64,000 nt of DNA from a virus. Position 1 is the first letter of the stretch. Each line of letters starts with the position of its first letter. The translations under genes and the position numbers were made by a program. The notes below the pieces were generated by a model. The model made no database searches and was not told where the DNA came from. It saw only the letters and a list, made by a program, of their open reading frames with translations. Location of the stretch: the IMG/VR virus record IMGVR_UViG_3300011113_000287, positions 1 through 64,000 of that record; one strand, 5' to 3'. This document shows, piece after piece, positions 21,999-36,028 of this stretch.

Positions 21999-22043
21999 GT
22001 GTTGTCTCCTTTGTCCCATCGGTGCGGTTGCCCCGATGCCCTC

Positions 22044-22074
22044 AGTCTGCCACACGGAATACTATCGGTGTCAA
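22044..22074 (-). promoter_or_regulatory. Promoter P1 (19-bp spacer)
   Basis: TTGACA-CCGATAGTATTCCGTGTGG-CAGACT. Confidence 0.8.
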
Positions 22075-22206
22075 ATGCTCCCGTGTGACGTTCGTCACGT
22101 GCCCTACGGTTGGGGCTATGGGTGACGGCGGTCACATGGGTGCGGAATGGGGGTAGGGGTGTGACACTCGTCACGTCCCCACCTATTGCTATCCGTGTGT
22201 CCTGCG

Positions 22207-22443
22207 TCACGCTGTCACCTCGTACCGACTCATGTCCCCTACGGGGAGTGCCACGCCGAACGCTTCCGTCCAGCCACACGCCATGAGGAACGTGTTACGT
22301 ACGAAGCGTGGGTTATCCTCAACGCACATGTCTGCGAACGCATGGCATAACGTCCCCCATGCGAGCACTCCCTCTGGTGTCTCAATGGTATCTAAGTGCT
22401 CTTTGAGCACTAATGCCATCGCCCGATAGTCCTTACGTGTCAT
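22207..22443 (-). CDS. Hypothetical protein (MTRKDY...NPRF)
   Basis: AGGAGG RBS; downstream of P2. Confidence 0.75.
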   Translation of the reverse strand: MTRKDYRAMALVLKEHLDTIETPEGVLAWGTLCHAFADMCVEDNPRFVRNTFLMACGWTEAFGVALPVGDMSRYEVTA

Positions 22444-22464
22444 GATTACTACCTCCTGTGTCCC

Positions 22465-22495
22465 AGACTACTATTGCCCGTACTATCCGTGTCAA
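22465..22495 (-). promoter_or_regulatory. Promoter P2
   Basis: TTGACA-CGGATAGTACGGGCAATAG-TAGTCT; CRP-like site at 22505. Confidence 0.8.
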
Positions 22496-22579
22496 ATGCC
22501 CGTGTGTGACGTGCGTCACGCATGTGCGTGGTCGTGCGCTCGTGCGTGGTCGCCCGTGTGGTCGCACCTGTGTGGTCGG

Positions 22580-22894
22580 TCACTTCCACGTGGGGTTACC
22601 TGCCCTCGTCATCACGACGTACACTACGTCGTTCCATACCTTGCGCCGTGCTTTCATGCCTCGCAGGTCGTGTGCCTCCACCTTCCATTGGATAGGCTCG
22701 TTGTCGTCCATCTCCACGTCTCCGACGAACGTGTCGTAGTGCGTCCAGCCCCTACCTCCCGTGTCGGCATCGTTGTCGTCGTCAATGAGTTCGTAGAACT
22801 CGTCCTCCGACATGGTGTCGTACCAGCACCCCCCGTCATTGACACGCTTGGGCGAGCCATCGGGGTTCGTGCGTACTGTGCTAATCGTTGTCAT
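22580..22894 (-). CDS. Hypothetical acidic protein
   Basis: MTTISTVR start after AGGAGG; downstream of P3. Confidence 0.7.
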   Translation of the reverse strand: MTTISTVRTNPDGSPKRVNDGGCWYDTMSEDEFYELIDDDNDADTGGRGWTHYDTFVGDVEMDDNEPIQWKVEAHDLRGMKARRKVWNDVVYVVMTRAGNPTWK

Positions 22895-23108
22895 TCTTGC
22901 CTCCTGCCCCCAGCGTAACATTCGCCGTACTATCGGTGTCAAGCCCACGTGTGTGACGCTTGGCACGCCTACGTGCGTGTGTGGTCGTGCGTGTGGTCGT
23001 CCCCGTAGCCTCACGGTGATTACGACGGGTACACTTGCCACATACCTTGTGTGCGGTGAACGCCACCATCATGTCGCTGGTGTCTCCGCATTGTGAGCAC
23101 GGGGTCAT
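22881..23108 (-). CDS. Small Zn-finger protein
   Basis: CSQC...CGKC; the C-terminal tail reads through regulatory DNA. Confidence 0.5.
   Translation of the reverse strand: MTPCSQCGDTSDMMVAFTAHKVCGKCTRRNHREATGTTTRTTTHARRRAKRHTRGLDTDSTANVTLGAGGKNDND
22912..22942 (-). promoter_or_regulatory. Promoter P3
   Basis: TTGACA-CCGATAGTACGGCGAATGT-TACGCT; CRP-like site at 22952. Confidence 0.8.
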
Positions 23109-23416
23109 GAGATAGCCTCCTCGTCCATGTCGTCGTCGTCGTCCATCGCAAGGTTGGGGAAGTAGGTGACGGTTGCGTTGCGCCCCATGCTGTCTTGCCT
23201 ATTCCACGTGTCCACCAGCATGGTGAGCGTGTCACGCTCGTCCATGTCCATGAGATTACGGGCAAGTGCCAGCAAGCACTTCACGGGGTCATCGCTCACG
23301 ATGCCCAGACATGACTTGCCGTACATGTTGCGCCCTGAGTAGGCACGGACTTCGCCGTCCCCGTTGAGGGCTGTCTCAATGTTGCTTATCTGTTCGTCGG
23401 TCAGTTTCGTTGTCAT
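23105..23416 (-). CDS. Hypothetical protein (YSGRxMYGxxC type)
   Basis: Leaderless start 6 nt after the -10 of P4. Confidence 0.75.
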   Translation of the reverse strand: MTTKLTDEQISNIETALNGDGEVRAYSGRNMYGKSCLGIVSDDPVKCLLALARNLMDMDERDTLTMLVDTWNRQDSMGRNATVTYFPNLAMDDDDDMDEEAIS

Positions 23417-23422
23417 GTCCCC

Positions 23423-23453
23423 AACTTATCATTCGCAATACTATCGCCGTCAA
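23423..23453 (-). promoter_or_regulatory. Promoter P4
   Basis: TTGACG-GCGATAGTATTGCGAATGA-TAAGTT; CRP-like site at 23463. Confidence 0.8.
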
Positions 23454-23515
23454 GTGCTTTCGTGTGACACACGTCACTTACGCATGCGTGCGTGTGGTCG
23501 TAGTGTGTGTGGTCA

Positions 23516-23917
23516 TTAGTGACAACGTATCCACTCAACGGGGTTCTCCCGATAGTACCTGTCCCGTCGCTCGCACGCCAGCCGATACACTTCGTCCTCG
23601 TACGCCTTGTAGTACGCCCGTGCCCACGCTCGCACCTCCCATTGGAGCACGTACCTTTCGGGCATCTCCTTGCCATACGTCTCCTGCCACGCCTCAATGG
23701 GGTTGGGCATGTCTGCCTCCCATGCGAGTGTGCCCCCGATGTGGGCATGGATAATGTGGTTCAGGGCTTCCATGCTCATGTCCCCTATCTCGTGGAACAG
23801 GTCATGGTAGGCATGTGCCGTACCGACGATGCGTCCCCATTCGTTCCATTCGTGTCTGTGCTTCTCCCACGTGTCCTCGTACGTGTGCGTGTGGTCGTCC
23901 GTGCGTGTGGTCGTCAC
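23516..23917 (-). CDS. Hypothetical protein
   Basis: GTG start overlapping the upstream stop, GAGG RBS. Confidence 0.65.
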   Translation of the reverse strand: MTTTRTDDHTHTYEDTWEKHRHEWNEWGRIVGTAHAYHDLFHEIGDMSMEALNHIIHAHIGGTLAWEADMPNPIEAWQETYGKEMPERYVLQWEVRAWARAYYKAYEDEVYRLACERRDRYYRENPVEWIRCH

Positions 23918-24207
23918 TTCGCCACCTCGCTCGTTGCCAACATCTCCACGCTGGGGAAGTAGTCGGGGTAATGGTTCTCCCAACAGTCGTCGTTAGCGTC
24001 CTCCCATGACTGAATGTAAAGCGTGCCGTCCTTGCCCTCGCCGTCCCACTCCGTAGCCTCCAATGCCACGTGTGCCACGTCGTCGGTGTGTGTGGGCTTG
24101 CGAACGGACACGATGACGTGTGCCCCGTCCCATGCTTCGCCTTCCTCCAACACTACTTTAACTACCGTAATGCCACCTGTCTTGTGAGTAATGTGTGTCG
24201 TTGCCAT
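23914..24207 (-). CDS. Hypothetical protein
   Basis: AGGAGG RBS; downstream of P5. Confidence 0.7.
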   Translation of the reverse strand: MATTHITHKTGGITVVKVVLEEGEAWDGAHVIVSVRKPTHTDDVAHVALEATEWDGEGKDGTLYIQSWEDANDDCWENHYPDYFPSVEMLATSEVAK

Positions 24208-24225
24208 TAGTTGCCTCCTACCGCA

Positions 24226-24256
24226 ACAGTATCATTAACACTACTATCGGTGTCAA
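24226..24256 (-). promoter_or_regulatory. Promoter P5
   Basis: TTGACA-CCGATAGTAGTGTTAATGA-TACTGT; CRP-like site at 24266. Confidence 0.8.
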
Positions 24257-24272
24257 GCGTGGTCATGTGACG

Positions 24273-25028
24273 TTAGTCACCCCACCATTCGCTGCTCGTG
24301 GTGTTACCGTGCTCGTCGTACCTGCGAGGCTGGTCAAGTTCTGCGATAGTCTCCAATGCGTACTCGTTGCCTGAGTAATACTCAATGGTGGCGTAGCCTG
24401 CCCTTGCCATCTCCCTACACAACGTCCGTATCTCGTCGTTCATGGTGTCCATCGCCTCCCACAACGCCCGTTCGTCGGCGGTCATGCGGTCACGGGACTT
24501 CTCAGTCATGGCGATGAAGTATCCATTCATTACTGCCGTCCCGTTGGCGGTGGAATAGCCCACCTCGTCGCCGTCCTCGTTGTAGTAGTGGATAGTGAAC
24601 GAACTTTCGTGGGGATAACTATTATCGCCCACGAAGTCGGCGTAGCGAATACCCTCGCCCCACGTAAGTGCCTTCGCTTCGTCGGCGTACAACTTGCCCC
24701 GAACGCTTGCCCCGTCTCCCTGACAGTACCCCAGCGAGTACGTCACACGGAAACCGTTGCGGTTCTTGTGGTCGCCTTCTGCGAACAACCTGCGCCACGA
24801 ATAGGACGTACCGTCGTGGTCGTCGCTTCCCGTTGCCCTGCGAATGAACACGTCTTGTAACGTCTCCACGATGTGCTCGTCGTTCATGTGTATGTAGTTG
24901 TACGAACGAACGTCCTCAACTACTTTCTGTTGTGCTTCCTTAGACAGTTCTGCGAACGTGTAAACGTAGCGAGAACGTGTCACCAATGTGTTTATCTCAT
25001 GTTGCGTTGTGGTCATGTTGTCCTCCAT
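24273..25028 (-). CDS. Hypothetical protein (VYTFxEL...YSLGYCQGDGAS)
   Basis: 251 aa; downstream of P6. Confidence 0.75.
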   Translation of the reverse strand: MEDNMTTTQHEINTLVTRSRYVYTFAELSKEAQQKVVEDVRSYNYIHMNDEHIVETLQDVFIRRATGSDDHDGTSYSWRRLFAEGDHKNRNGFRVTYSLGYCQGDGASVRGKLYADEAKALTWGEGIRYADFVGDNSYPHESSFTIHYYNEDGDEVGYSTANGTAVMNGYFIAMTEKSRDRMTADERALWEAMDTMNDEIRTLCREMARAGYATIEYYSGNEYALETIAELDQPRRYDEHGNTTSSEWWGD

Positions 25029-25034
25029 GCCCTA

Positions 25035-25065
25035 ACCTTATCATCTGGAATACTATCGCTGTCAA
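25035..25065 (-). promoter_or_regulatory. Promoter P6
   Basis: TTGACA-GCGATAGTATTCCAGATGA-TAAGGT; CRP-like site at 25075. Confidence 0.8.
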
Positions 25066-25085
25066 GCGGTGTTATGTGTCCGTTG

Positions 25086-25586
25086 TCACACGTAGTCGGT
25101 AAGCGGTTGCCCCGTGTAGGGTACTCCGAATGTCTGCTCGTACAACGCCAATCCATCTGCCCACTCGCTCCACGTCCCATCGCTGGTAACGTTCACCAAG
25201 TCGCCGTAGTGCTGGCTTGCTCGCAATAGTATTGCCGTCACTACTGCGTCGTAAGGCTTGTAGGCGGTCTTACAGAAGTTAAACACGCCTTCTCCCTTCT
25301 CAATGCCTTCCTTCTCCCACTCCGCTACCGACACTTCTGCTGACCAATACAGGGTCTCGTGCCCGTCCTTGCCAACTCCGTTGAGTGCGAAGTATCCTTC
25401 GGTAAAGTCAGGTTGAGTACCGTCCTCGCCTATGCCATTGGCAAGTGCGATGCCGTTCTCCTGCGCCTGCTTACAGATGCGTTGTGCGTCCAGCACCAAG
25501 CGTCCGTACGCCTCACGTGCCTGCGCCCGTGCGTGTGTGGTCGCTTGCGTGTGGTCGTGCCTGCGCCAATAGTGTGTGTATCCCAT
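25086..25586 (-). CDS. MGYTHYW-type phage protein
   Basis: MGYTHYW...HET...FCKTAYKPYD...SDG. Confidence 0.75.
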   Translation of the reverse strand: MGYTHYWRRHDHTQATTHARAQAREAYGRLVLDAQRICKQAQENGIALANGIGEDGTQPDFTEGYFALNGVGKDGHETLYWSAEVSVAEWEKEGIEKGEGVFNFCKTAYKPYDAVVTAILLRASQHYGDLVNVTSDGTWSEWADGLALYEQTFGVPYTGQPLTDYV

Positions 25587-25608
25587 GTGGTCGTATCCTC
25601 CTGTTGTC

Positions 25609-25639
25609 AATGTATCACACGAACTACTATCGGTGTCAA
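25609..25639 (-). promoter_or_regulatory. Promoter P7
   Basis: TTGACA-CCGATAGTAGTTCGTGTGA-TACATT. Confidence 0.8.
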
Positions 25640-25654
25640 GTCGTGTGGTCGTTG

Positions 25655-26119
25655 TCACCACGATGCGTGGTAGTAGAACTCCCAACTATCAGGCATAGTA
25701 AGTAAGTGCTTAATAAGTTTGGCGGTGTAGTCAATGTCCATGTAAAAGTATTCGTTGTGCGGTGTGTCATCACCCCACAGAAAACGAGAGGAAAACAACT
25801 CTTTGGCTTTACTGTGGTCGGCAATAACCTGCTCGCAACTTTCCAGCAACAGCGACAAGTCCTCACGAGGAACGTATGTTTCAGCACCATTATTCTCCTC
25901 ATAGTTGGTGTTATCTGCGAACCATTGGTGAATGTGGTAAGCCTTGCGCCATTGTCCTACCTTTACGCTCAACAAGACACTTTGTACCCACATGTCATTA
26001 TCAACGGAAAACTCAGCCACTTTACTAATCTCCATGAGTTTGTGAAAGTCCTCCAAATCGGTGCTGGTGCTGTACGACGAATAATAGTTCCTTGCGTACA
26101 AGTATTGGTCAAGTCCCAT
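25655..26119 (-). CDS. MGLDxY-type phage protein
   Basis: MGLDQYL...WRK...IHQWF...YYHASW. Confidence 0.75.
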   Translation of the reverse strand: MGLDQYLYARNYYSSYSTSTDLEDFHKLMEISKVAEFSVDNDMWVQSVLLSVKVGQWRKAYHIHQWFADNTNYEENNGAETYVPREDLSLLLESCEQVIADHSKAKELFSSRFLWGDDTPHNEYFYMDIDYTAKLIKHLLTMPDSWEFYYHASW

Positions 26120-26123
26120 GTGG

Positions 26124-26384
26124 TCACTTTCCTTTCTTGGATTTGGATTTTTTGGCTTTGGACTTCTTTCGCTTGCGCTTGTTTGCGTGGGCGACTATTT
26201 CCTCCAACGTCTTGCTCAACTTCACGTCAAGTTTGTAGTCCTTGCTTTGTGGAGACAACCGAAGCCACTCGTAGTCGTCAATGTCGTACACGGGTTGGTC
26301 GTTACTCCACATTGACAGTTGTCCGTTGTCCACCTGCCAACCATAACGCTTGTCCCATTTGATAACGAAGTAGTGTTCTTTCAT
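26124..26384 (-). CDS. Hypothetical protein with Lys-rich tail
   Basis: AGGAGG RBS; downstream of P8. Confidence 0.7.
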   Translation of the reverse strand: MKEHYFVIKWDKRYGWQVDNGQLSMWSNDQPVYDIDDYEWLRLSPQSKDYKLDVKLSKTLEEIVAHANKRKRKKSKAKKSKSKKGK

Positions 26385-26401
26385 GTTGTCCTCCTAGTTG
26401 G

Positions 26402-26432
26402 AATGTACCACACGGGTTACCATCGGTGTCAA
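26402..26432 (-). promoter_or_regulatory. Promoter P8
   Basis: TTGACA-CCGATGGTAACCCGTGTGG-TACATT. Confidence 0.8.
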
Positions 26433-26433
26433 G

Positions 26434-26958
26434 TCAGCCAACTTGCGTAAGTTCTCCGCACACTCCGCACGTGTAGTAGTCTCCCAGCGTTGTGGTCGGG
26501 TCAAAGTGATGCTCCCACGTCTCAATGGGGTGCGAGCACTCCGTGAGTGTGGTCTGCTGTTCCACCAAGCCTTCCAACTGCGCCACCTTGTCGCCTTCCT
26601 CCGCCATGTCAAACTTAAACAAATCTGCGCTGTCCCAATGAGAAACGTCCACGATGAAATCAACCGTGCCGTCGCCTTGCGTGGTCAGTTTCGCTCCTTC
26701 GGGCAACCGACGAACGATGTAGTAATCGTCGTCAGCGTTCCAAATGAGATACTGCTTGTCGTCGGCACACTCCCCACACACACGGTCTCCCGTGTCTCCG
26801 TTGGGGTAGTGCCCCGAACCATTGGGCACTTCCGTCCCACACTTGTCACATAAGTAGTAGTCGCTCCACGTGGGCAGTAAGTTGCTCTTGTTCCCACACA
26901 TTGTGTCCCCACAGTTGGGGCATGCCTTTCCGTCGTGGTCGGTGATAAAGGTAGTCAT
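26434..26958 (-). CDS. Multi-Zn-ribbon protein
   Basis: CPNC, CDKC, CGEC, CGVC. Confidence 0.65.
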   Translation of the reverse strand: MTTFITDHDGKACPNCGDTMCGNKSNLLPTWSDYYLCDKCGTEVPNGSGHYPNGDTGDRVCGECADDKQYLIWNADDDYYIVRRLPEGAKLTTQGDGTVDFIVDVSHWDSADLFKFDMAEEGDKVAQLEGLVEQQTTLTECSHPIETWEHHFDPTTTLGDYYTCGVCGELTQVG

Positions 26959-27095
26959 TTCAGGCTCTCCTTGATGTGCCACGCCAGCGCACGTCCCCTG
27001 TCGTACGACTCAATGTACGGTTCGGGGTAATGCGTAGTAACGTCGTAACGATACTCCCGTATGCCATTGATAAATGCCTTGATGTGTTTAATCAT
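26955..27095 (-). CDS. 46-aa protein (not in the ORF track)
   Basis: MIKHIKAFINGIREY...IKESLK; ATGA overlaps at both ends. Confidence 0.55.
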   Translation of the reverse strand: MIKHIKAFINGIREYRYDVTTHYPEPYIESYDRGRALAWHIKESLK

Positions 27096-27532
27096 TTCAG
27101 GCTCTCCCATACTTCATCGTCGTCTATCAGTTCTACTGCTTGCGATACTGCTTCCTGTACGTCAAAGTGAACGCAGTCCAACCAACCATCGGTGATACCT
27201 TCACCGTAGGCATACAAATCAAACCATGCGTTGTTAAGCCACTCAATGCGTTCGTCTAAGTCAGCAAGTTCCTTGTCGGTCTTGGCAATACTAATGAGGT
27301 CACTCACGTAGCGGATTATCTCGTCGGGCTGTTTGTTCGCTTTACGAGCCTCTTTGCTGTCCCACACGTGGATACGCATTACACCATCACAGAACACATG
27401 GATTTCCCTATCACCCTTGACTATCGTTGCTACGGGTTCGTGCGCCTGCCTGTCATTGACGTAGAACGCAGGGTCACGACGGAGCACCAAGTCGTCGTCG
27501 CTAAGGTAGTTGTATTGTACGCTGGCTGTCAT
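27092..27532 (-). CDS. Hypothetical protein
   Basis: 146 aa, coupled. Confidence 0.7.
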   Translation of the reverse strand: MTASVQYNYLSDDDLVLRRDPAFYVNDRQAHEPVATIVKGDREIHVFCDGVMRIHVWDSKEARKANKQPDEIIRYVSDLISIAKTDKELADLDERIEWLNNAWFDLYAYGEGITDGWLDCVHFDVQEAVSQAVELIDDDEVWESLK

Positions 27533-27906
27533 GACAACTCCAAGTTGGGTTGGACAAGCGTGAGTCCTAATGACTCACACACACTAAACGAGTTGTATGC
27601 GTCGGTGGGTTCGTCGCCCCATGACATGCCTGCGGTAATGTTAAACCTACGATTATCTACGTGAAAGAAACCACAGTCACGACGGCTCTCTGAGTCGTAC
27701 ACTTCCTCAATACAGTCAATGAGAAACTGTTGTACGTCCTCTGGTGTAGGCTCTGTGTTGTACCAGCGTGATGTGGCACACATGTCCTCCAAGAACGCCA
27801 CCGTGTTCTTGTACCGTTCTGGTGATGCCAAGTGCTTTGCGTTGTCATACGCCTGCTCTTTCGTGGCTTCCATCTCACAGATGGAGAACATCAGGTCTGC
27901 GCCCAC
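27529..27906 (-). CDS. Hypothetical protein (MGAD...GMSWGD)
   Basis: 125 aa. Confidence 0.7.
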   Translation of the reverse strand: MGADLMFSICEMEATKEQAYDNAKHLASPERYKNTVAFLEDMCATSRWYNTEPTPEDVQQFLIDCIEEVYDSESRRDCGFFHVDNRRFNITAGMSWGDEPTDAYNSFSVCESLGLTLVQPNLELS

Positions 27907-27907
27907 G

Positions 27908-28057
27908 TCACACCCACTTCCCGTTTACGAGCACAAAGTCCATGAACTCTGCGTATTCGGGGTCAGCATGGAATACGTCGGTGCGACAGTATTCGCACAC
28001 TTCGTCCTTTCCATACACCCGTCCCATCGGGCACTCACAATACGATTTGTCGGTCAT
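27908..28057 (-). CDS. Small Cys-rich protein
   Basis: AGGAGG RBS; downstream of P9. Confidence 0.6.
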   Translation of the reverse strand: MTDKSYCECPMGRVYGKDEVCEYCRTDVFHADPEYAEFMDFVLVNGKWV

Positions 28058-28074
28058 TCTTGCCTCCTGCTTAC

Positions 28075-28105
28075 AATGTACCACACGACATACCATTGGT
28101 GTCAA
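28075..28105 (-). promoter_or_regulatory. Promoter P9
   Basis: TTGACA-CCAATGGTATGTCGTGTGG-TACATT. Confidence 0.8.
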
Positions 28106-28174
28106 GCCCCCTGTACGGACGATTACGGGAAGGAGGGGGAGTGCGTAACTCGTCCATACAGGGGGACAAACTTG

Positions 28175-28999
28175 TTATGCGTATGCGTAGACATACTCAA
28201 CGATGGAGAACTCTCCCTTGTCCTCCATCATGTATGCCATCATCTCTGTTACGCCATCAGGGAAATAAAAAAAGATGCGAGTATCGTGAACTCCAAAACT
28301 GTCGCACCCTTCATCAAAGTTTCCCTCATTTTTTTCTTCGTCATAGTCGCCAAACGACACGTATCCGCCAATGAGACCTTGACGTATGGGGTCATTACCT
28401 TTCCAACGATAGGTGATGTTAGCACCAATAGGTTCTTTCGCATTGTATTGTAAGTCAATGGACTGTACCTGCGCCCTGCGCCCGTCGCTCAGTATCAACG
28501 TTTGTTCTCCATCAAATGTTTCCTCGCTCGTGTAGACGGCACGAGACCCACGCACTTGTTCGTAGGACAAATGGCTGTCCTCTCCGTCAATGCGTGCCCA
28601 AATGTGGGTACAGCCAGCGAAATACGGTGTCTCCAACACTTCTATCTCAGACACTCCGTCTCCTACTGTGTTATCCCACTCGTCGTCGTTGTCGTCGTAC
28701 TTGTCCACCAAGATTTCGTAGGCAACGTTGGCATCGGCAGATTTCTCCGTAATGAAGTACCCAATGCGGTTCACGATGTGGTAACCATTAACGATGTACG
28801 TGCCTTTGTCCCCGTCAATGTATGTCCACACGGTGCGTTCCGTGTCGGGAGTATTAGCCCTGTCGCACACGTGCTCCACCTCGTCGCCGTAAATCTCAAA
28901 CATGGTTTGATTAAACGACGAGTCGGGGTCAATGTAGTTAATCATGGGCTTAAACTCTTTCTCCCATGCGTCATAGTCCATACGCACAACTTCGCTCAC
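28175..28999 (-). CDS. Multidomain acidic hypothetical protein
   Basis: VWTYIDGD...GYHIVNRIGYFITE in the N-terminal domain. Confidence 0.7.
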   Translation of the reverse strand: MSEVVRMDYDAWEKEFKPMINYIDPDSSFNQTMFEIYGDEVEHVCDRANTPDTERTVWTYIDGDKGTYIVNGYHIVNRIGYFITEKSADANVAYEILVDKYDDNDDEWDNTVGDGVSEIEVLETPYFAGCTHIWARIDGEDSHLSYEQVRGSRAVYTSEETFDGEQTLILSDGRRAQVQSIDLQYNAKEPIGANITYRWKGNDPIRQGLIGGYVSFGDYDEEKNEGNFDEGCDSFGVHDTRIFFYFPDGVTEMMAYMMEDKGEFSIVEYVYAYA

Positions 29000-29504: not shown

Positions 29505-29505
29505 G

Positions 29506-29751: not shown

Positions 29752-29770
29752 GTCATTACCTCCAAACGAC

Positions 29771-29801
29771 AACTTATCAAATCACTTACTATCGGTGTCA
29801 A
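29771..29801 (-). promoter_or_regulatory. Promoter P10
   Basis: TTGACA-CCGATAGTAAGTGATTTGA-TAAGTT. Confidence 0.8.
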
Positions 29802-30060
29802 GCCCGTCATAGTCAATGGTGAGTTGGTCAGCAAACATAACACTATTAATGTATTTGCCTACCTCAACGGGGTCGGTGGCAAACTCAATGAGAGCCTCGC
29901 CAATGAGGTGCGCTTCATACACACCGCACTCACAGCCTTCCGCCATGTGTTTGCCGTGCCTCACGGTGTTCCAACCAATGAGGTCAAGATACAAAATGAA
30001 CGGTGAAGGAAACGGATAGTCCTCACTCATTTCCCACAAGTGTGCTACTGCCTTCGTCAT
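29782..30060 (-). CDS. Hypothetical protein
   Basis: Coupled ORF. Confidence 0.65.
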   Translation of the reverse strand: MTKAVAHLWEMSEDYPFPSPFILYLDLIGWNTVRHGKHMAEGCECGVYEAHLIGEALIEFATDPVEVGKYINSVMFADQLTIDYDGLDTDSK

Positions 30061-30605
30061 GATTTCCCCTGTTCATTCGTTGTGATGTACGCTTCTTTCA
30101 CAGCGTCAATGATGCTGGGCTTGTAGTTCAGCCATGCCATGCTTCCGTTGAGAGCAAGTTCAGCCACCAACGTAAGCCATGCGTCGTCGGCAAAGTTTGC
30201 TCCATAATACACAGCCTTGTAAGTTTCCTTACTATGGGCATCAACGTCAGTAGTATTATCAAAGTATCCCTCCTCCAAAAGGTTGGCAAACACTTCACGC
30301 AACGCAGACGGGCTGTACGGAATGGCGTTGCTCCACGTCAGGTCTCCACTACGGAGAGAACGTTCAGCCAACTCTTTGCGAGTCACATCGGCAAGTTTCT
30401 TGTAAGGGTTAGCGTCATTAGACGTAATGTCCAACACTTGCGATACATTCTGCCCATACTGTTCTGCGATACGAGAGATTTCGCTGTCGTTGCCGTCAGA
30501 CTCCTCCCACTCGTCACGTGCTTCGGGGGGAAGTTCGTTGGGGTCAAGGAACATACAATGCTCCGCCTCTAACACCGTTCCTGTTTGTGAGCAAACTATC
30601 AACAT
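30057..30605 (-). CDS. Hypothetical protein
   Basis: Likely start MLIVCSQ. Confidence 0.65.
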   Translation of the reverse strand: MLIVCSQTGTVLEAEHCMFLDPNELPPEARDEWEESDGNDSEISRIAEQYGQNVSQVLDITSNDANPYKKLADVTRKELAERSLRSGDLTWSNAIPYSPSALREVFANLLEEGYFDNTTDVDAHSKETYKAVYYGANFADDAWLTLVAELALNGSMAWLNYKPSIIDAVKEAYITTNEQGKS

Positions 30606-30606
30606 G

Positions 30607-30876
30607 TTACAACTCCTCCCCATGCTCGTCTGTAAATACAAGGTCTTTCAGCCTCGCTTCGTGTCCGAAACCACACGAGAAGTCGTCCTTTGCGTAATGC
30701 TCAACACGTTCCATTACGCTTTCCTCGTCTACGGTGATACCTTCCTCAATAAGGTTCTCAACGATGCGAACCACGTCGTACGTCACGTGCTTGGCGACGT
30801 TAATGTAGTTACCAAACGGCAACTTTTCCACCATTTTCTCCATCGCTTCTAACGAAACTTTCTGTTTTTTCCTCAT
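30607..30876 (-). CDS. Hypothetical protein
   Basis: Coupled ORF. Confidence 0.65.
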   Translation of the reverse strand: MRKKQKVSLEAMEKMVEKLPFGNYINVAKHVTYDVVRIVENLIEEGITVDEESVMERVEHYAKDDFSCGFGHEARLKDLVFTDEHGEEL

Positions 30877-31160
30877 TGGTTCACATTCCTGTTCCATTGG
30901 GTACGAGGGTGGCGTTCCTCTGCCTTTTTAATCCATTCGTTGTATGAAGTAGGAGTAACGATAAAGGCATGTACGTCGTTAGCAGGAGTTTCAGGGCAAG
31001 CCTTTCCCTCTAACACCGAAACGAGTTTGTGTGTGTATCCGTTCGTGCCAGCAGGAAGGTTGTTCCCACCTGCCGACAGGAACACCATTTGTAACCTGCG
31101 AGGATTACCTTCTGGGTCGTCCTTGCTACACGTGATGTGTAATACGTAGCGAGTAATCAC
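30873..31160 (-). CDS. Hypothetical protein (GNPRRL)
   Basis: Coupled ORF. Confidence 0.65.
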   Translation of the reverse strand: MITRYVLHITCSKDDPEGNPRRLQMVFLSAGGNNLPAGTNGYTHKLVSVLEGKACPETPANDVHAFIVTPTSYNEWIKKAEERHPRTQWNRNVNQ

Positions 31161-31468
31161 TTGCTTCCTTTCTTTCCATCTTTGCCACGCTTGCTATCTC
31201 CACCAGCGTTGATGGTGATACTAGGTGCGTAGTTGATACTTTGGTCAATGTTGATAATAGTATTCTGAGTGTTCCTCAATGCCACGTCGGACGTGAGAAC
31301 GGACACTCTGCCCGTCTTTGTGTCCTCAACGATGAACACCGTTGCTCCATCTCCATGTTTCACAGCGTCCTCCAAACTTGCGAGTGCCATTGACACAACT
31401 TCTGTTTCGTCCTCAGCGTCGTCGTACGACATAGACCACGTGACTACCCAACGTCCAACGTCAGCCAT
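31157..31468 (-). CDS. Hypothetical protein
   Basis: Coupled ORF. Confidence 0.65.
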   Translation of the reverse strand: MADVGRWVVTWSMSYDDAEDETEVVSMALASLEDAVKHGDGATVFIVEDTKTGRVSVLTSDVALRNTQNTIINIDQSINYAPSITINAGGDSKRGKDGKKGSK

Positions 31469-31685
31469 AAATGACAGGCTCGCAGTCGTCGTTCAGTACG
31501 AAGTTGATGCCCAACTCCCGACAATGTTTGCGGAGAAAGGGAACTTCGTCGGAGATAGAGGCGAGTTGTGATGCCAACATGTTCCATTCCTCGTCATTCT
31601 CAACGTCAGGCAACCGTCCTGCGAGCGTGTGAAACCAGCCAACCGTGTCCCAATGGTATTTGCGGTGCTCTGCGTACTTGCTCAC
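31461..31685 (-). CDS. Hypothetical protein
   Basis: Coupled ORF. Confidence 0.6.
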   Translation of the reverse strand: MSKYAEHRKYHWDTVGWFHTLAGRLPDVENDEEWNMLASQLASISDEVPFLRKHCRELGINFVLNDDCEPVIYG

Positions 31686-32125
31686 GCCCTGTCCTCCGAC
31701 ACGTCCTTGACGAACGTCTTGGCAAACACCATGCGGTATCCAAACGTGGTATTGATGTTAAATGAAATCTCGTAACCACGATACAGCATTTGGTTCGTAA
31801 TACGGACTATCTTGTCGTGAGTGAACGCCCACTTGGTAGCGTACTTGTAATAGACGCTTACCATTTCTTGCTTTTCAGCATCGTAACGCTTAGGGAACGT
31901 CACTTCGGACTGTTCTCCGTCGTCGGTAACGATTTCCGTCTTAACGAGGGTGACACGAGGTGTAATACCGCCGATGGTGTCCATCGTCCAACCCCAACGG
32001 GTAAGCCTGTTTACTTGGTCAAACACTTTTGCCATTGAGCGTGCTTTGATGATGCGGTAGCGACGGTTGTGAACTCCGAGTTTGTCGTTGTCTACACGAA
32101 CCTTGCTGGTGAATACGTTTGTCAT
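31682..32125 (-). CDS. Hypothetical protein
   Basis: AGGAG RBS; downstream of P11. Confidence 0.7.
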   Translation of the reverse strand: MTNVFTSKVRVDNDKLGVHNRRYRIIKARSMAKVFDQVNRLTRWGWTMDTIGGITPRVTLVKTEIVTDDGEQSEVTFPKRYDAEKQEMVSVYYKYATKWAFTHDKIVRITNQMLYRGYEISFNINTTFGYRMVFAKTFVKDVSEDRA

Positions 32126-32156
32126 TTTGTTATCTCCTGTTCTTGTCTTTGTTATG

Positions 32157-32187
32157 AATGTATCACACGGGTTACTATCCGTGTCAA
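32157..32187 (-). promoter_or_regulatory. Promoter P11
   Basis: TTGACA-CGGATAGTAACCCGTGTGA-TACATT. Confidence 0.8.
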
Positions 32188-32266
32188 GTCTTGTCACGAA
32201 TAAACACGCTGAGAAAGTAGTACCCACATGTCAGTATTACGCATAATGCGATGATGGCAAAGTCAC

Positions 32267-32515
32267 TCATACGAGAGCCATCTCGTTCTCACGCTCAGGG
32301 TCGTGAACGGTGACTGTGGTAGACCACACTCCGTCAGCGTCCTCTTTCGTTACGAAGTGGAGGTCATAGTTGTCGTCAAACGTCACCCACTCATCACGAT
32401 TAATGATGTGTGAAAGATAGTTCGTACGACGTTCGCTACACGCCAAGTATCCAAACGAGAACCACAGCATTTGGTCTGCGAGTTCGTCGGTTGGCAACCA
32501 TTCCAACTTATTCAT
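32267..32515 (-). CDS. Hypothetical protein
   Basis: Coupled to the whiB-like gene. Confidence 0.6.
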   Translation of the reverse strand: MNKLEWLPTDELADQMLWFSFGYLACSERRTNYLSHIINRDEWVTFDDNYDLHFVTKEDADGVWSTTVTVHDPERENEMALV

Positions 32516-32850
32516 GCTTCCTTCCTCATTTCTTTTGATTTGCGTACAACCATTTTGTGTTGCTCATGGTAGAACTTCATACGACGTTTACGATTACGGT
32601 TCGGCTTACCACGAGGTTGGAAATCAACTCCTCCCCACACCCCGTAGAACTCGTCCTTAGCCAATGCGAAGTTAAAGCACTCACGCACTACTTCGCACTT
32701 AGCACAAATGCTTTGCGTATGCTTTAATTTACTTTTGTAAGTACCTACTTCGTCCTTCTCGCAGTCAAGAAAGAACAGGTTGGAGGGAAGCCCCCTACAA
32801 CCTGCCCTTTCGTACCACGACAGGTCTGGTGTCGTGGCGTTGTCCGTCAC
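32512..32850 (-). CDS. whiB: WhiB-family transcription factor
   Basis: W..RAGC...FF...CAKC.V.REC..FAL....YGVWGG. Confidence 0.9.
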   Translation of the reverse strand: MTDNATTPDLSWYERAGCRGLPSNLFFLDCEKDEVGTYKSKLKHTQSICAKCEVVRECFNFALAKDEFYGVWGGVDFQPRGKPNRNRKRRMKFYHEQHKMVVRKSKEMRKEA

Positions 32851-33854
32851 ACCAACACCAAGTCGTTGATGACCTTCATCACCTGCTCGTCCTGATTAAA
32901 GACCTTCCCCGTGAGAGCGTTCATCATGTTGCGCTCAACACGGTTATCGTCTTTACCGACGACGTGCTGGTTAAAGGTGTTAAAGGCGTGGATAACTCCG
33001 AGTGCCGTGCCCGTGAACGGTGCGACACGTGGGTCATTGACGTACATGTCCTTGATGCGCTCCTGTTTGTTCTCAATGCGAGAGACAGCCTGCTTTGGGG
33101 CGTTCTCGTCTGAGTTAATCGGCATCAACTTGTTCACGATGGCTTCCCACTCACGGTCAGACACCTTGATGCTGGCATACTTGTTCACTTCGGCAACGAT
33201 GTCCTCCGTCATGCGGTGGACGAAACCGAGTGCGTCACGCACATTCTGTAAGCGGAAGTTGCTGTTCTTGCTGTGACGAGCACGGAACGTTTCGGTCTTT
33301 TCGCTAATCGCACGAGCCAGCAAGTTGTCACACTCAACACGAGTGGCAACCTGTTTGTACGTGGTGCTAATAGACCCGTTGTGGCTCGTGGTAGCCAAGA
33401 GCATCGGACGAACGGAGAAGCCGTCAAGCACCTTGATGGTTTCGGGCATCTCAACGCTGACGAAACTCACCGCACCGTTTTTCAGGATACCTGCGCTACC
33501 AATGTTAAGGTCATCGTCCAAGAGATGCGACACGCTCTCAATGAGCCATGACTTGTATTGGTGAATGGCATAGGTGTCCTTAAACATGCCCAGCACATCA
33601 CCGTTGTCGCTACGGACAATGGCTTTGCGGTCAGTCTCCATGCGGTACGTGTCGTTCCACTTGATGTAGACGGGTGCTTCCTGAGCCTCCCACGAATACA
33701 GGCGACGGAGAACGTCCTCAACGGGGATAGCACCCTCGTAGTGATTTGGCTCGTCGCTCTGACTGTCCATGCGGTAGTGCCACGCCGTGCCACGCTGTTT
33801 CGTGTGCCCGATGAGGCAATACTTGTTCAGCCACTCGTATGTTTCCTTACTCAT
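32847..33854 (-). CDS. DUF932-family protein
   Basis: AWH, IVRSD...LG, SAG.LKNG, LLATTSHNGS, RVECDN, RHS. Confidence 0.85.
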   Translation of the reverse strand: MSKETYEWLNKYCLIGHTKQRGTAWHYRMDSQSDEPNHYEGAIPVEDVLRRLYSWEAQEAPVYIKWNDTYRMETDRKAIVRSDNGDVLGMFKDTYAIHQYKSWLIESVSHLLDDDLNIGSAGILKNGAVSFVSVEMPETIKVLDGFSVRPMLLATTSHNGSISTTYKQVATRVECDNLLARAISEKTETFRARHSKNSNFRLQNVRDALGFVHRMTEDIVAEVNKYASIKVSDREWEAIVNKLMPINSDENAPKQAVSRIENKQERIKDMYVNDPRVAPFTGTALGVIHAFNTFNQHVVGKDDNRVERNMMNALTGKVFNQDEQVMKVINDLVLV

Positions 33855-33892
33855 TGTTCCTACCTCCTGTGGTAGTTGTCGTTTGTAACATC

Positions 33893-33923
33893 ACCGTATC
33901 ACACGGCATACTATTCGTGTCAA
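33893..33923 (-). promoter_or_regulatory. Promoter P12
   Basis: TTGACA-CGAATAGTATGCCGTGTGA-TACGGT. Confidence 0.8.
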
Positions 33924-33928
33924 GTCCA

Positions 33929-35836
33929 TTACCGATAATCATTCAGCATGTCCTGTAACAGTTTTGCCGTCATCGTCCCTGCGTCGGCGTTCAGGTTCTC
34001 AGCCCAGCCGTCCAACACCGCCGACGTGCTTTCCGCTTTGGCGTTGAGCAGACTCCACAACCGCATGTCAATAGTTGGGAACTCAGCGTCCACCGCCGTA
34101 ATCCACCACGACACCACATGGCTGTCTTGTCCGATACGGTGACACCTGTCCTCAGCCTGCTGTCCTGTGGACGGGCTGTATGGCATCTCAGCCAACACCA
34201 CGTGCGATGCGGAGGTCAGGTTCAGTCCCGTACCTGCGCTCTCGTACTGTCCCAAGAACACGCTGACCTGCTTGCTCGTGAACTTCTCCACGTACCGTTG
34301 CTTGGCTTCGGGAGTAGAACCTCCTGCCACCATGACAACGCCATGTCCTTCCAACTTCTCGTACAAGGCATTGAGCACCTTACGATGGTATGCGAACACT
34401 ACTACTTGTTCACCCTCTGCGATGAGTGAGTTCACGTGCTCAACTACCGCATTGATTTTGGCGATACCCAGCAGTTCACGCAACTTGTTCATGCGAGTGA
34501 TGACCTCAGCCTTGCTCGCCCGTTGCCATGCTTCCGTGCCATACTTCTCCATGACCCAACGCAAGAAATCACGCTCCGCCGTGCGGTATTCGTCCATCTC
34601 CTCGTTGTTAAGTTCTATGTCAAGTTGCGCCCTGCGCTTGGCAGGAAGGTCAGCCAGCACGTCCTCCTTGCGCCTGCGTACCATACACGTGCCCCGTAAC
34701 ACGGTGTTCAGTTCCGTAGTGTTACTAGCACCATTCATGTTCGGAAATCCGTTCACCACACGGTAATCGCAATACTTGATGAGAAACTGCTTACGTGAGC
34801 CAAACACGTTGTCCAGCCTTCCAATGATGCGGAGAGGGCTAAGCAACTCGCTGGGACGGTTTGGTGTCAGCGTTCCCGACATGAGAGCGACGATGCCACT
34901 AACGGGAATACTATTGGCGATGTATCCGACACCACGTGTGCGCTGTGCCTTCTCGTTCTTGATGCTGTGCGCCTCGTCCACGATGAGCGTGTCATACTTC
35001 CCAGCCAACTTCGTAGCCCACGCACTTACCACGCTGTCACCGATGACGAGAACGTCGTGCTTAGTGAGGGAGTGTGGTTTGCGTCCTTTGACAGTAATGA
35101 CCTTGATAGACGGTGCGAACCTGCGAAACTCCTTTACCCATTGGAGGCGCAAATGGGGAGGTACGACAACGAGTGTCTTTCTTTTGTTCATCGTGGTGTC
35201 CAACGCCAATGCGATGCCCTGTGCCGTCTTGCCCAAGCCCATGCTGTCTGCCAGCAAGACACGTCGGGCTTCCAATGCGTACTTAACGCCAGCACGTTGG
35301 TATGGCAGTAGTGGCAAGTCCAAGTCAAAGCCAAGTTCAGCGTCATGGGACTTGGACAGTTCCACGAGTTCGGGACGAGACACCACAACTCTTGGCATGC
35401 GTTCCAGCCCGTACACAAACAGTTCCAAGTTTGCCAGCAACGTCACGCTGTCCCATTTCAGTTCGGGCAGTTCGGTGACGGACGGGCAGTTCTCGCTATT
35501 GTGGTACGTCAGCCAGCCACCATCGTCAAAGACGTACAGTCCCAGCCCTGCGAGCACGTCATTACCGCACAGCGCACAGGTGTCCTTGCGTTTGTTCACG
35601 AGGATACGTGTTGCGCTCATTGGCAAGTGAGCCTGCGATGCGGTGCGAGTAATCGGCAGTACCGACAAGTATTCCAGCAAGTCATTAGCACTTATAAAGG
35701 TCAGTTCATCAAGGTTCTGCGCCTTTATCAACTCGTCTACCTGCGTCTCGTCAAGCAACCCCAAAGGCATACTACGAGCGATAAGTGATGCCCTTATTTG
35801 GACTTGCTGTTTGGGCAATACGGCGACGTTAGCCAT
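33929..35836 (-). CDS. SNF2-family helicase/translocase (HARP-like)
   Basis: LLADSMGLGKT, DEAH, SGT..PNRP.EL, GTGLNL, QAEDRCHRIGQ. Confidence 0.92.
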   Translation of the reverse strand: MANVAVLPKQQVQIRASLIARSMPLGLLDETQVDELIKAQNLDELTFISANDLLEYLSVLPITRTASQAHLPMSATRILVNKRKDTCALCGNDVLAGLGLYVFDDGGWLTYHNSENCPSVTELPELKWDSVTLLANLELFVYGLERMPRVVVSRPELVELSKSHDAELGFDLDLPLLPYQRAGVKYALEARRVLLADSMGLGKTAQGIALALDTTMNKRKTLVVVPPHLRLQWVKEFRRFAPSIKVITVKGRKPHSLTKHDVLVIGDSVVSAWATKLAGKYDTLIVDEAHSIKNEKAQRTRGVGYIANSIPVSGIVALMSGTLTPNRPSELLSPLRIIGRLDNVFGSRKQFLIKYCDYRVVNGFPNMNGASNTTELNTVLRGTCMVRRRKEDVLADLPAKRRAQLDIELNNEEMDEYRTAERDFLRWVMEKYGTEAWQRASKAEVITRMNKLRELLGIAKINAVVEHVNSLIAEGEQVVVFAYHRKVLNALYEKLEGHGVVMVAGGSTPEAKQRYVEKFTSKQVSVFLGQYESAGTGLNLTSASHVVLAEMPYSPSTGQQAEDRCHRIGQDSHVVSWWITAVDAEFPTIDMRLWSLLNAKAESTSAVLDGWAENLNADAGTMTAKLLQDMLNDYR

Positions 35837-35981
35837 GCTGTTCCTCCTGTTCGTTGTCCACCAAAGATGATACAGCGTCGGTGTTACGACGTGACACAGC
35901 CTCGTCGTACAACCTGTCCAACAGGGCTTCCACCTTGCGGTCAGCCTCTTTGCGTAGTTGTCGTGTGCGTCGGTACGTCAC
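35829..35981 (-). CDS. 50-aa protein (not in the ORF track)
   Basis: GTG start after AGGAGG directly downstream of P13: MTYRRTRQLRKEAD... Confidence 0.55.
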   Translation of the reverse strand: MTYRRTRQLRKEADRKVEALLDRLYDEAVSRRNTDAVSSLVDNEQEEQHG

Positions 35982-35997
35982 TCAGCCTCCTACCCCA

Positions 35998-36028
35998 AAC
36001 GTACTATGCCACCTACTATCGCAGTCAA
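35998..36028 (-). promoter_or_regulatory. Promoter P13
   Basis: TTGACT-GCGATAGTAGGTGGCATAG-TACGTT; CRP-like site at 36038. Confidence 0.8.

What the first reader, a model, noticed from the sequence alone, without database searches (positions are those of the whole stretch)
22044..36028. Thirteen promoters with an invariant 19-bp spacer and conserved spacer box, in a genome encoding a MerR-like HTH
Seen: 13 copies on the minus strand of TTGAC[AGT]-[CG][CG][GA]AT[AG]GTA-N10-[TC]AnnnT, each in front of a gene or short operon. The spacer is exactly 19 bp in all 13, and 11 have an extended -10 TG. In six (P1, P7, P8, P9, P11, P12) the region forms a dyad ACAC-N12-GTGT, e.g. ACACGG-ATAGTAAC-CCGTGT in P11. 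Established: primary sigma factors prefer ~17-18 bp spacers, and 19-bp spacers with an internal dyad typify promoters switched on by MerR-family DNA untwisting. Inference: a phage regulon gated by a spacer-binding factor. The MerR-like gene at 58629-59057 is the obvious candidate; the two WhiBs or the small HTH at 37122 are alternatives.
Basis: partly seen in the sequence, partly recalled or inferred. Interest (0 to 1): 0.85.

Follow-up and report, generated by a model that had tools for sequence, protein, structure and literature searches.

The report
Thirteen matched early promoters in actinophage
A 92-kb uncultured phage of Actinobacteria drives a 14-kb block of small unknown genes from 13 near-identical promoter/ribosome-site cassettes with an unusual, invariant 19-bp spacer and a conserved box next to the -35; the cassettes are real and under selection, but the proposed MerR-type switch by the phage's MerR-like protein is not supported.

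Summary
There are 13 exact copies, all on the minus strand at 22044-36028. All have a 19-bp spacer and 11 have TG before the -10. None is expected by chance, and the next-best site in the 92-kb genome scores 2.4 bits against 31-48 for the 13.

They look like host primary-sigma extended -10 promoters. Each sits 6-38 nt before a start codon. One gene starts exactly 6 nt after the -10 with no Shine-Dalgarno, which places the transcription start as expected for a leaderless actinobacterial mRNA.

Related uncultured phages keep the extended -10 and the distance to the ribosome site. The upstream half changes by lineage: the same box, other boxes behind TTGACA at 19 or 18 bp, or palindromes with no -35. 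Tally for TTGACA promoters: 34 at 19 bp, 7 at 18, none at 17.

The MerR-like protein is a conserved replication-module gene with an invariant recognition helix and no MerR coiled coil. It is also present in phages whose promoters lack the box. The small HTH and both WhiBs do not co-vary with the box either.

Best reading: an early promoter battery carrying a lineage-specific operator for an unidentified phage factor, more likely a repressor than an untwisting activator. Whether 19 bp reflects the unknown host's polymerase remains open.

The parts
35998..36028 (-). P13: -35 TTGACT, 19-nt spacer with GATAGTA box, -10 TACGTT; drives a 50-aa ORF plus the SNF2 helicase (33929-35836)
   Evidence: helicase Pfam
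33893..33923 (-). P12: TTGACA-N19-TACGGT, TG before the -10, ACAC-N12-GTGT; drives DUF932 (32847-33854), WhiB-1 (32512-32850) and an 82-aa ORF
32157..32187 (-). P11: TTGACA-N19-TACATT, the only copy with 6-bp dyad arms; drives six small ORFs (30057-32125)
29771..29801 (-). P10: TTGACA-N19-TAAGTT, with neither the spacer dyad nor the upstream dyad
28075..28105 (-). P9: TTGACA-N19-TACATT, box variant AATGGTA, Shine-Dalgarno at predicted +1
26402..26432 (-). P8: TTGACA-N19-TACATT, box variant GATGGTA, Shine-Dalgarno at predicted +1
25609..25639 (-). P7: TTGACA-N19-TACATT, highest matrix score (48 bits)
25035..25065 (-). P6: TTGACA-N19-TAAGGT; an in-frame ATG lies at predicted +1 and a second ATG follows a GGAGG
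24226..24256 (-). P5: TTGACA-N19-TACTGT
23423..23453 (-). P4: TTGACG-N19-TAAGTT; the ATG of gene 23105-23416 begins exactly 6 nt after the -10 with no Shine-Dalgarno (leaderless arrangement)
   Evidence: the PHROG alignment of this protein starts at residue 1
22912..22942 (-). P3: TTGACA-N19-TACGCT
22465..22495 (-). P2: TTGACA-N19-TAGTCT, no TG; lowest matrix score of the 13 (31.5 bits)
22044..22074 (-). P1: TTGACA-N19-CAGACT (A-11 and T-7 kept); drives gene 21651-21998
36039..36052 (.). GTGAC-N4-GTCAC dyad 10 nt upstream of the P13 -35. The same dyad lies at the same offset before P1-P6 (22085, 22506, 22953, 23464, 24267, 25076) and is conserved upstream of the helicase-operon promoter in five relatives (absent in G003)
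21596..22210 (.). Two arrays of four GTGAC-N4-GTCAC sites at about 36-bp spacing, flanking P1 and its gene at the distal end of the promoter block

Best explanation
The 13 sites are a battery of strong promoter-plus-ribosome-site cassettes read by the host's primary-sigma (sigma-A) RNA polymerase. Each has a consensus -35, an extended -10 (TGnTAnnnT) and a start about 7 nt after the -10, so the mRNA begins at the Shine-Dalgarno or, for P4, at the ATG. They most likely form the early, host-takeover transcription class of a lytic freshwater-type actinophage. The 19-bp spacing is characteristic of the phage family (19, less often 18, never 17). It is tolerated or preferred because of the TG element and the longer spacer optimum of actinobacterial polymerase. 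The 16-nt asymmetric element (C, the -35 hexamer, then 9 nt of spacer) is an operator for an unidentified, fast-evolving phage-encoded factor that controls all 13 together. That factor is more likely a repressor that shuts early transcription off than an activator that untwists the spacer. Shown: the sites, their discreteness, their position relative to genes, selection on the box, lineage-specific replacement of the upstream half, and failure of the four named regulators to co-vary. Inferred: sigma-A dependence, early timing, existence and sign of the factor.
For: - **Discrete class.** There are 13 exact sites and none expected by chance; the weight-matrix gap is 31-48 bits against 2.4.
- **The -10 and start are placed correctly.** P4's ATG lies exactly 6 nt after the -10 with no Shine-Dalgarno, and the PHROG alignment confirms residue 1. 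Two more -10 + 6 nt + ATG cases occur in relative G003. AGGAGG begins at predicted +1 in six promoters and within 2 nt of it in three more.
- **No phage polymerase route.** No sigma-70 region 2 or region 4 domain was found in the genome. Apart from two isolated hexamer pairs without the box (at 14259 and 45393), no other consensus -35/-10 pairs exist, so these are by far the best candidates for promoters usable by unmodified host polymerase.
- **Downstream genes look early.** They are mostly small ORFans, plus an SNF2 helicase, DUF932 and a WhiB.
- **Lytic lifestyle.** No integrase or resolvase was found.
- **Selection on the cassette.** Cassettes are 84-97% identical between this phage and G001, even between non-orthologous promoters, while the surrounding early-region DNA is 72-76% identical. 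Within the genome the box is invariant while the 3' half of the spacer and the flanks vary.
- **Family comparison.** The extended -10 and the distance to the Shine-Dalgarno are constant, while the upstream half is lineage-specific. It carries other boxes in G002 and G003, TTGGTGACA in G004, and in G005 an 18-bp palindrome placed either 16 nt or 4-6 nt from the -10. A variable position suits an operator or repressor, not a positioned activator.
- **Spacer length is not critical to the box.** The same box occurs with 18- and 19-bp spacers in G003.
- **Literature.** The mycobacterial optimum is 18 bp (PMC1616969). In E. coli the TG element compensates for longer spacers and shifts the mode by +1 (PMC10911233). 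Cluster A mycobacteriophage repressors bind asymmetric 13-14-bp sites, some inside the early promoter, with subcluster-specific consensus sequences (PMC6550527).
Against:
- The host is unknown, so its spacer preference could not be measured.
- In M. smegmatis a 19-bp spacer cut activity to about one sixth of the 18-bp optimum.
- The nearest cultured relative, Streptomyces phage BRock, shows a 17-bp mode. An invariant 19 is therefore unusual and could mean dependence on a factor or on DNA topology.
- No candidate box-binding protein was identified: no Pfam DNA-binding domain in the regulon ORFans.
- In close relative G001 the spacer is a near-perfect palindrome centred near -25, the position used by MerR-type and Mu C-type activators.
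- Early timing is inferred from gene content only.
Confidence: 0.5

Rival explanations
1. MerR-type or Mu C-type activation. The 19-bp spacer misaligns the -35 and -10, and a phage dimer bound to the spacer dyad untwists the DNA to switch the regulon on. That would make this a middle class rather than an early one. The agent could be the MerR-like protein (58629-59057) or another phage protein.
For: - All 13 promoters have exactly 19 bp with near-consensus hexamers, as at the mer, soxS and Mu mom promoters (PMC9303308).
- Six promoters here, and all promoters seen in G001, carry a dyad spanning the spacer. In G001 an 11-bp perfect palindrome is centred near -25.
- The 19-bp spacing is poor for mycobacterial polymerase.
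- A MerR-type winged HTH is encoded.
Against: - The MerR-like recognition helix is invariant across 60 homologues, while the spacer sequence differs completely between lineages. G004 has the protein at 79% identity but no box.
- The model lacks the coiled-coil dimerisation helix: the last helix is 11 residues.
- The gene sits between the helicase and SSB genes and is conserved next to the polymerase gene in BRock-like Streptomyces phages with a 17-bp promoter mode.
- Seven of the 13 promoters lack the dyad, and its right arm equals a TRTG-type extended -10.
- 18- and 19-bp spacers coexist with one box in G003.
- If these promoters needed a phage activator, the genome would have almost no recognisable early promoter.
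Confidence: 0.15
2. No trans-acting factor. The 19-bp spacer and the TA-step-rich box are intrinsic promoter features. They are tuned either to the geometry of the unknown host's polymerase or to highly negatively supercoiled, freshly injected DNA. In the second case the class would switch off by itself when replication relaxes the template.
For: - Family-wide preference for 19, then 18, regardless of box sequence.
- A 14th candidate with a 19-bp spacer, TG and no box lies in an intergenic gap at 45393.
- Long spacers are favoured at high negative supercoiling (PMC9303308).
- TSS-mapped Streptomyces avermitilis promoters are reported to peak at a 19-nt spacer (PMC8780764).
- TA(G/C)TA-like cores recur in the boxes of several lineages.
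Against: - Known holoenzyme contacts are not base-specific at -31 to -23, yet seven box positions are invariant or nearly so in 13 copies while the neighbouring spacer varies.
- Boxes differ sharply between sister phages that presumably infect related hosts.
- Sister lineages carry palindromes instead, which points to protein binding.
- The BRock mode of 17 conflicts with a general actinobacterial 19.
Confidence: 0.2
3. The uniformity is mainly evolutionary. The cassettes are mobile regulatory units, like the PeSL motifs of T4-type phages. They are kept alike by recombination and in turn promote shuffling of the small genes between them. On this reading the box has no function of its own.
For: - Gene content between cassettes is mosaic among relatives, with many genes present in only one or two lineages.
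- Cassettes cross-match between non-orthologous positions.
- Sub-families of spacers suggest duplication history.
- A small dyad lies just upstream of seven promoters, as in promoter/stem-loop cassettes (PMC2839356 and PMC4122927).
Against: - Conservation has sharp edges (16 nt, then the TG and the -10) with a variable middle, which is not what conversion tracts give.
- The largest replacement seen between close relatives (WhiB-1) is inside an operon, not at a cassette.
- Recombination does not explain why the spacing is 19.
Confidence: 0.1

Closest known systems
MerR-family-dependent promoters (mer, copA, soxS) and the Mu C protein at the mom promoter
   Same: Near-consensus -35 and -10 hexamers are separated by 19 bp. 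In some copies and in the closest relative, a dyad spans the spacer.
   Different: No cognate MerR-family regulator: the MerR-like protein lacks the coiled coil and does not co-vary. The element conserved in all copies is asymmetric and abuts the -35. Relatives use 18 and 19 bp with one box. There are thirteen copies in one regulon rather than one divergent operator.
Cluster A mycobacteriophage (L5, Bxb1) repressor operators and stoperators
   Same: Many co-oriented copies of an asymmetric site of about 13-16 bp, which at the early promoter overlaps the -35 and runs into the spacer. The consensus differs between related phages.
   Different: Here every site is a complete promoter and none lies inside a transcribed gene as a stop site. 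No repressor gene has been identified and no integrase is present, so the phage is probably lytic.
Early promoter batteries of large lytic phages (SPO1 host-takeover module, T5, T4 early) and PeSL cassettes of T4-type phages
   Same: A dense series of strong host-polymerase promoters stands in front of small, fast-evolving genes of unknown function. The cassettes flank mosaic gene content.
   Different: Those promoters have ordinary 17-bp spacing and no invariant box in the spacer. PeSLs include a terminator stem-loop.
T4 middle promoters (MotA box with AsiA sigma appropriation)
   Same: A phage-specific box lies around -30 upstream of a host-type -10, defining one temporal class.
   Different: The MotA box replaces the -35; here a perfect -35 is kept. 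No MotA-like protein was found, and WhiB-1 does not co-vary with the box.

Membership tests
Sigma-70/sigma-A-type extended -10 promoter | -35 hexamer close to TTGACA | tested here: met
   11 of 13 are TTGACA; the other two are TTGACT and TTGACG.
Sigma-70/sigma-A-type extended -10 promoter | -10 TAnnnT preceded by TGn | tested here: met
   TAnnnT in 12 of 13, with P1 CAGACT keeping A-11 and T-7. TG in 11 of 13.
Sigma-70/sigma-A-type extended -10 promoter | Spacer of 16-18 bp | tested here: not met
   19 bp in 13 of 13. Family tally is 34 at 19, 7 at 18 and none at 17.
Sigma-70/sigma-A-type extended -10 promoter | Transcription start 6-8 nt after the -10 | tested here: inconclusive
   Indirect only: the leaderless ATG is 6 nt after the -10 at P4 and in two G003 promoters, and the Shine-Dalgarno begins at predicted +1. 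No RNA data.
MerR-family activator system | Promoter with a 19-20-bp spacer and good hexamers | tested here: met
MerR-family activator system | Dyad operator centred in the spacer at every regulated promoter | tested here: not met
   A core dyad is present in 6 of 13 and a full 6-bp dyad in 1 of 13. The element conserved in all 13 is asymmetric.
MerR-family activator system | Regulator with an N-terminal winged HTH followed by a long antiparallel coiled-coil helix (and usually an effector domain) | tested here: not met
   In the AF2 model (mean pLDDT 82) the HTH starts at residue 55 after a 40-residue disordered N-terminus and a hairpin. The helices after the wing are 13 and 11 residues, with no coiled coil. 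Sequence and fold matches to MerR proteins cover the DNA-binding domain only.
MerR-family activator system | Regulator specificity matches the operator (co-variation or co-occurrence) | tested here: not met
   The recognition helix is invariant in 60 homologues. The protein is present in G004 and in BRock-like phages that lack the box.
Cluster A-type repressor/operator system | Many co-oriented asymmetric 13-14-bp sites with a lineage-specific consensus | tested here: met
   13 co-oriented copies of a 16-nt asymmetric element. The consensus differs in G002, G003 and G004.
Cluster A-type repressor/operator system | Sites also within transcribed regions (stoperators) and a cognate repressor gene | tested here: not met
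   No box outside the promoters. No repressor was recognised.
PeSL-like mobile regulatory cassette | Conserved promoter motif flanking variable genes, with replacement breakpoints at the motif | tested here: inconclusive
   Gene content is mosaic and cassettes cross-match, but breakpoints were not mapped and one replacement is inside an operon.

The most novel reading that the evidence does not exclude
The invariant 19-bp spacer plus the -35-abutting box could be a new way for a phage to time a gene class. One version is a factor docked beside region 4 of sigma-A, for example a WhiB-borne DNA-reading tail (an actinobacterial counterpart of sigma appropriation). The other is a factor-free supercoiling sensor that fires only on freshly injected, highly underwound DNA. 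In both versions the lineage-specific upstream modules (boxes or palindromes) would be swapped onto a constant extended -10/ribosome-site core.
Probability: 0.15. Interest if true: 0.8.

Novelty: new variant of a known kind. Interest (0 to 1): 0.5.

Why it matters
Nothing is known about transcription signals in the abundant, mostly uncultured low-GC freshwater Actinobacteria or their phages. This family offers a ready-made set of more than 40 near-consensus promoters with defined -35, spacer, -10, start and ribosome site. These could serve as expression parts and as a probe of polymerase geometry in those hosts. The modular replacement of the upstream half between sister phages is a natural experiment in how promoter specificity and its regulator co-evolve. 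If the 19-bp spacing proves to be a topological or factor-dependent switch, it would add a phage timing mechanism outside the E. coli and Bacillus models.

Tried and rejected
- **Exact 15-mer in 2.9 million viral contigs.** Only single chance hits, no other multi-copy genome.
- **Megablast of the region against GenBank phages.** No match.
- **Phage sigma factor.** No Pfam sigma-70 region 2 or region 4_2 match.
- **Sigma-28-type reading of CCGATA as a -10.** Rejected because nothing is conserved at the required upstream position.
- **Alternative 17-bp reading with GATACA as the -10.** Rejected because P8 and P9 would have G at the essential second position.
- **Antisense promoter from TACTAT on the plus strand.** No conserved partner element and nothing to transcribe.
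- **Intrinsic terminators between units.** Not above shuffled expectation.
- **Second repeated promoter class in the rest of the genome.** None found by k-mer or upstream-region inspection.
- **Box binder among regulon and neighbouring ORFs.** Pfam and PHROGs found no DNA-binding domain.
- **Host identification.**
  - No tRNA genes in the 64-kb window.
  - The single genome-contig scan returned only a phage contig binned into an Ignavibacteria MAG.
  - The protein atlas gave only viral WhiB clusters.
- **GTGAC-N4-GTCAC enrichment in BRock, as a test of a link to the MerR-like protein.** No enrichment.


Full report
**What the window is.** The window is the first 64 kb of a 92,155-bp IMG/VR virus record. 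Its ends repeat over 127 bp, and nearly all genes lie on the minus strand.
- In the direction of transcription the order is: large ORFs not annotated here (92-64 kb; by analogy with BRock probably virion genes), then a replication module, then a stretch with a queuine tRNA-ribosyltransferase, a nucleotidase, WhiB-2, a lysozyme-like protein, a small HTH and a glycosyltransferase, then the 14-kb block of this finding.
- The replication module (about 64-52 kb) holds a DnaC-like loader, primase, helicase, the MerR-like ORF, SSB, DNA polymerase I, a UvsX-like recombinase and a Cas4-type nuclease.
- Two WhiB genes point to an actinobacterial host. No integrase or resolvase was found.
- The nearest cultured relatives are the Streptomyces BRock-like myoviruses. 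They share only about 33% polymerase identity but have the same module order.

**The observation.** There are no more in the whole genome.
- Aligned, all 13 read C, the -35 hexamer, a 9-nt box (consensus ccGATAGTA), 10 variable nt, then TAnnnT. The spacer is always 19 nt, and TG lies one base before the -10 in 11 of 13.
- A weight matrix built from them scores the 13 at 31-48 bits and the next-best site in 92 kb at 2.4 bits. This is a closed class, not the top of a continuum.
Only one has 6-bp arms. The ACA/TGT core of the dyad follows automatically from TTGACA on the left and a TRTG-type extended -10 on the right.

**Are they promoters, and where does RNA start?** Each site lies 6-38 nt upstream of an ORF.
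- In six promoters AGGAGG begins exactly at the 7th nucleotide after the -10, and in three more a GGAGG-type site begins within 2 nt of it. The predicted mRNA therefore starts with, or just before, its ribosome site.
- At P4 there is no Shine-Dalgarno. The ATG of gene 23105-23416 begins exactly 6 nt after the -10. A PHROG profile aligns to that protein from residue 1, which confirms the start codon.
- This is the classic leaderless arrangement of Actinobacteria, and it fixes the -10 and the start independently of the consensus. Two promoters in relative G003 show the same -10 + 6 nt + ATG geometry.
- No sigma-factor domain is encoded. Only two other isolated hexamer pairs with an extended -10 were seen in the genome, at 14259 and 45393, and neither carries the box.
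- The genes served are small ORFans plus an SNF2 helicase, DUF932 and WhiB-1.
- Together this is the signature of an early, host-polymerase class. That timing is an inference.

**Relatives.** Helicase homologues in viral contigs gave a graded series of related phages.
- Phages 93-95% identical in the helicase (G001, L097) carry the same cassette at orthologous positions. In G001 all five captured copies share one spacer that is almost a perfect palindrome. L097 has a one-base variant of the box.
- Cassettes are 84-97% identical between this phage and G001, even between non-orthologous promoters, whereas the surrounding early-region DNA is 72-76% identical. The cassette is therefore under purifying selection.
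- At 75-78% helicase identity the picture splits. G002 and G003 keep TTGACA and the extended -10 but have other boxes directly behind the -35, with spacers of 19 or 18 bp. G004 has TTGGTGACA instead.
- At 65% helicase identity, G005 has no -35 at all. It has an 18-bp perfect palindrome placed either 16 nt or only 4-6 nt from the -10.
- The extended -10 and its fixed distance to the ribosome site are the constant core across the family. The upstream half is a lineage-specific module.
- For promoters with the consensus -35 the spacing tally is 34 at 19 bp, 7 at 18 and none at 17. In G003 the same box occurs with both lengths.

**Is 19 bp abnormal?** For E. coli it is. For Actinobacteria the evidence is mixed.
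- The measured optimum in M. smegmatis is 18 bp, with 19 bp giving about a sixth of that activity (PMC1616969).
- TSS-mapped Streptomyces avermitilis promoters are reported to peak at 19 nt (PMC8780764).
- By my own count, with the same hexamer definitions, Streptomyces phage BRock peaks at 17.
- In E. coli the TG element compensates for longer spacers, and TG promoters are enriched for 18 bp (PMC10911233).
- Long spacers are favoured on highly negatively supercoiled DNA (PMC9303308).
- The host could not be identified, so its own preference could not be measured. The spacing is a real peculiarity of this phage family, but it is not diagnostic of a MerR-type mechanism.

**The proposed regulators.**
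- *MerR-like ORF (58629-59057).*
  - It has a genuine MerR-type winged HTH. A confident model (mean pLDDT 82) shows no long coiled-coil helix, and the HTH is preceded by 54 extra residues.
  - It is a core gene of the family: 81 homologues of 48-94% identity, all 141-157 aa. The recognition-helix residues are invariant.
  - It is 79% identical, with the same recognition helix, in G004, whose promoters lack both TTGACA and the box. It is also conserved beside the polymerase gene in BRock-like phages.
  - A protein with an invariant reading head cannot be what reads a site that differs in every lineage.
- *Small HTH (37122-37352).* Its recognition helix is identical in all six lineages.
- *WhiB-2.* It is likewise a conserved core gene.
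- *WhiB-1.* It is hypervariable, only 32-38% identical even to the phages that share this box, although its neighbours are 93% identical.
- None of the four passes a co-variation test.
- The conserved proteins are better matched to the conserved motifs. The GTGAC-N4-GTCAC dyad lies 10 nt upstream of seven of the 13 promoters and upstream of the helicase-operon promoter in five of the six relatives compared; G003 lacks it there. That pairing is speculation.

**Mechanism.** I favour a battery of host sigma-A early promoters carrying an operator for an unidentified, rapidly evolving phage factor.
- The operator model rests on three points:
  - selection on an asymmetric 16-nt element that RNA polymerase is not known to read base-specifically;
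  - sharp divergence of that element between sister phages;
  - replacement of it by palindromes, at variable positions, in other lineages.
- Variable position, indifference to 18 versus 19 bp, and the lack of any other early promoters all favour negative control (early shut-off) over activation by untwisting.
- The closest precedent is the Cluster A mycobacteriophage repressor. It binds asymmetric 13-14-bp sites, some within the early promoter, with subcluster-specific consensus sequences (PMC6550527).
- Rivals that remain open:
  - a spacer-binding activator other than the MerR-like protein;
  - purely intrinsic tuning to the host polymerase or to supercoiling;
  - homogenisation of mobile promoter cassettes as in T4-type PeSLs (PMC2839356), which is compatible with any of the others.

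**Verdict.** I rate it a new variant of a known kind, a phage early-promoter battery with an operator. It is of moderate interest because of the invariant 19-bp spacing, the start at the ribosome site, and the modular swapping of the upstream half across an uncultured phage family.

Noticed in passing
window 21596-21722 and 22085-22210; single sites at 22506, 22953, 23464, 24267, 25076, 36039: The dyad GTGAC-N4-GTCAC occurs 15 times at up to one mismatch (3.5 expected). It forms two arrays of four at about 36-bp spacing around P1 and its gene, and lies 10 nt upstream of the -35 at seven promoters. It is conserved upstream of the helicase-operon promoter in five relatives, abutting the -35 in two of them. 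It is a candidate site for one of the conserved HTH proteins.
   Followed up: partly
window 22564-25652 and 36497-37768, minus strand: The asymmetric repeat ACGACCACAC(A/G) has 13 or more co-oriented copies, in both coding and intergenic DNA. They cluster in the distal promoter block and around the small HTH gene.
   Followed up: no
window 32512-32850 (WhiB-1) versus G001, L097, G002-G005: The WhiB gene after DUF932 is only 32-38% identical between phages whose flanking genes are 93% identical. Every version has a different, strongly basic C-terminal tail (here PRGKPNRNRKRR...). It is either a hypervariable or a repeatedly replaced sigma-A-region-4 binder.
   Followed up: partly
window 38063-38461 (WhiB-2): This family-conserved WhiB has a 64-aa C-terminal extension that carries an HGTxxRYRQxCxCxxC motif and an invariant DFDLFTILYQLLQ-type tail.
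   Followed up: no
window 45363-45393, minus strand: A 14th promoter-like site (TTGACG, 19-nt spacer, TG, TAAGTT) lies in an intergenic gap. It lacks the GATAGTA box.
   Followed up: no
L168/L169 (G005) 21747-27880: The sister lineage has five promoters with an 18-bp perfect palindrome (core GTTCCACGTGGAAC) in place of a -35. The palindrome sits at two different distances from the extended -10.
   Followed up: partly
L173 (VGVV01000016.1): A 19-kb contig deposited in an Ignavibacteria MAG encodes a WhiB-2 that is 83% identical to this phage's. It is almost certainly a mis-binned contig of this phage family.
   Followed up: no
window 22000-24000: The distal part of the promoter block has 58% G+C against 46-50% elsewhere in the window.
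   Followed up: no
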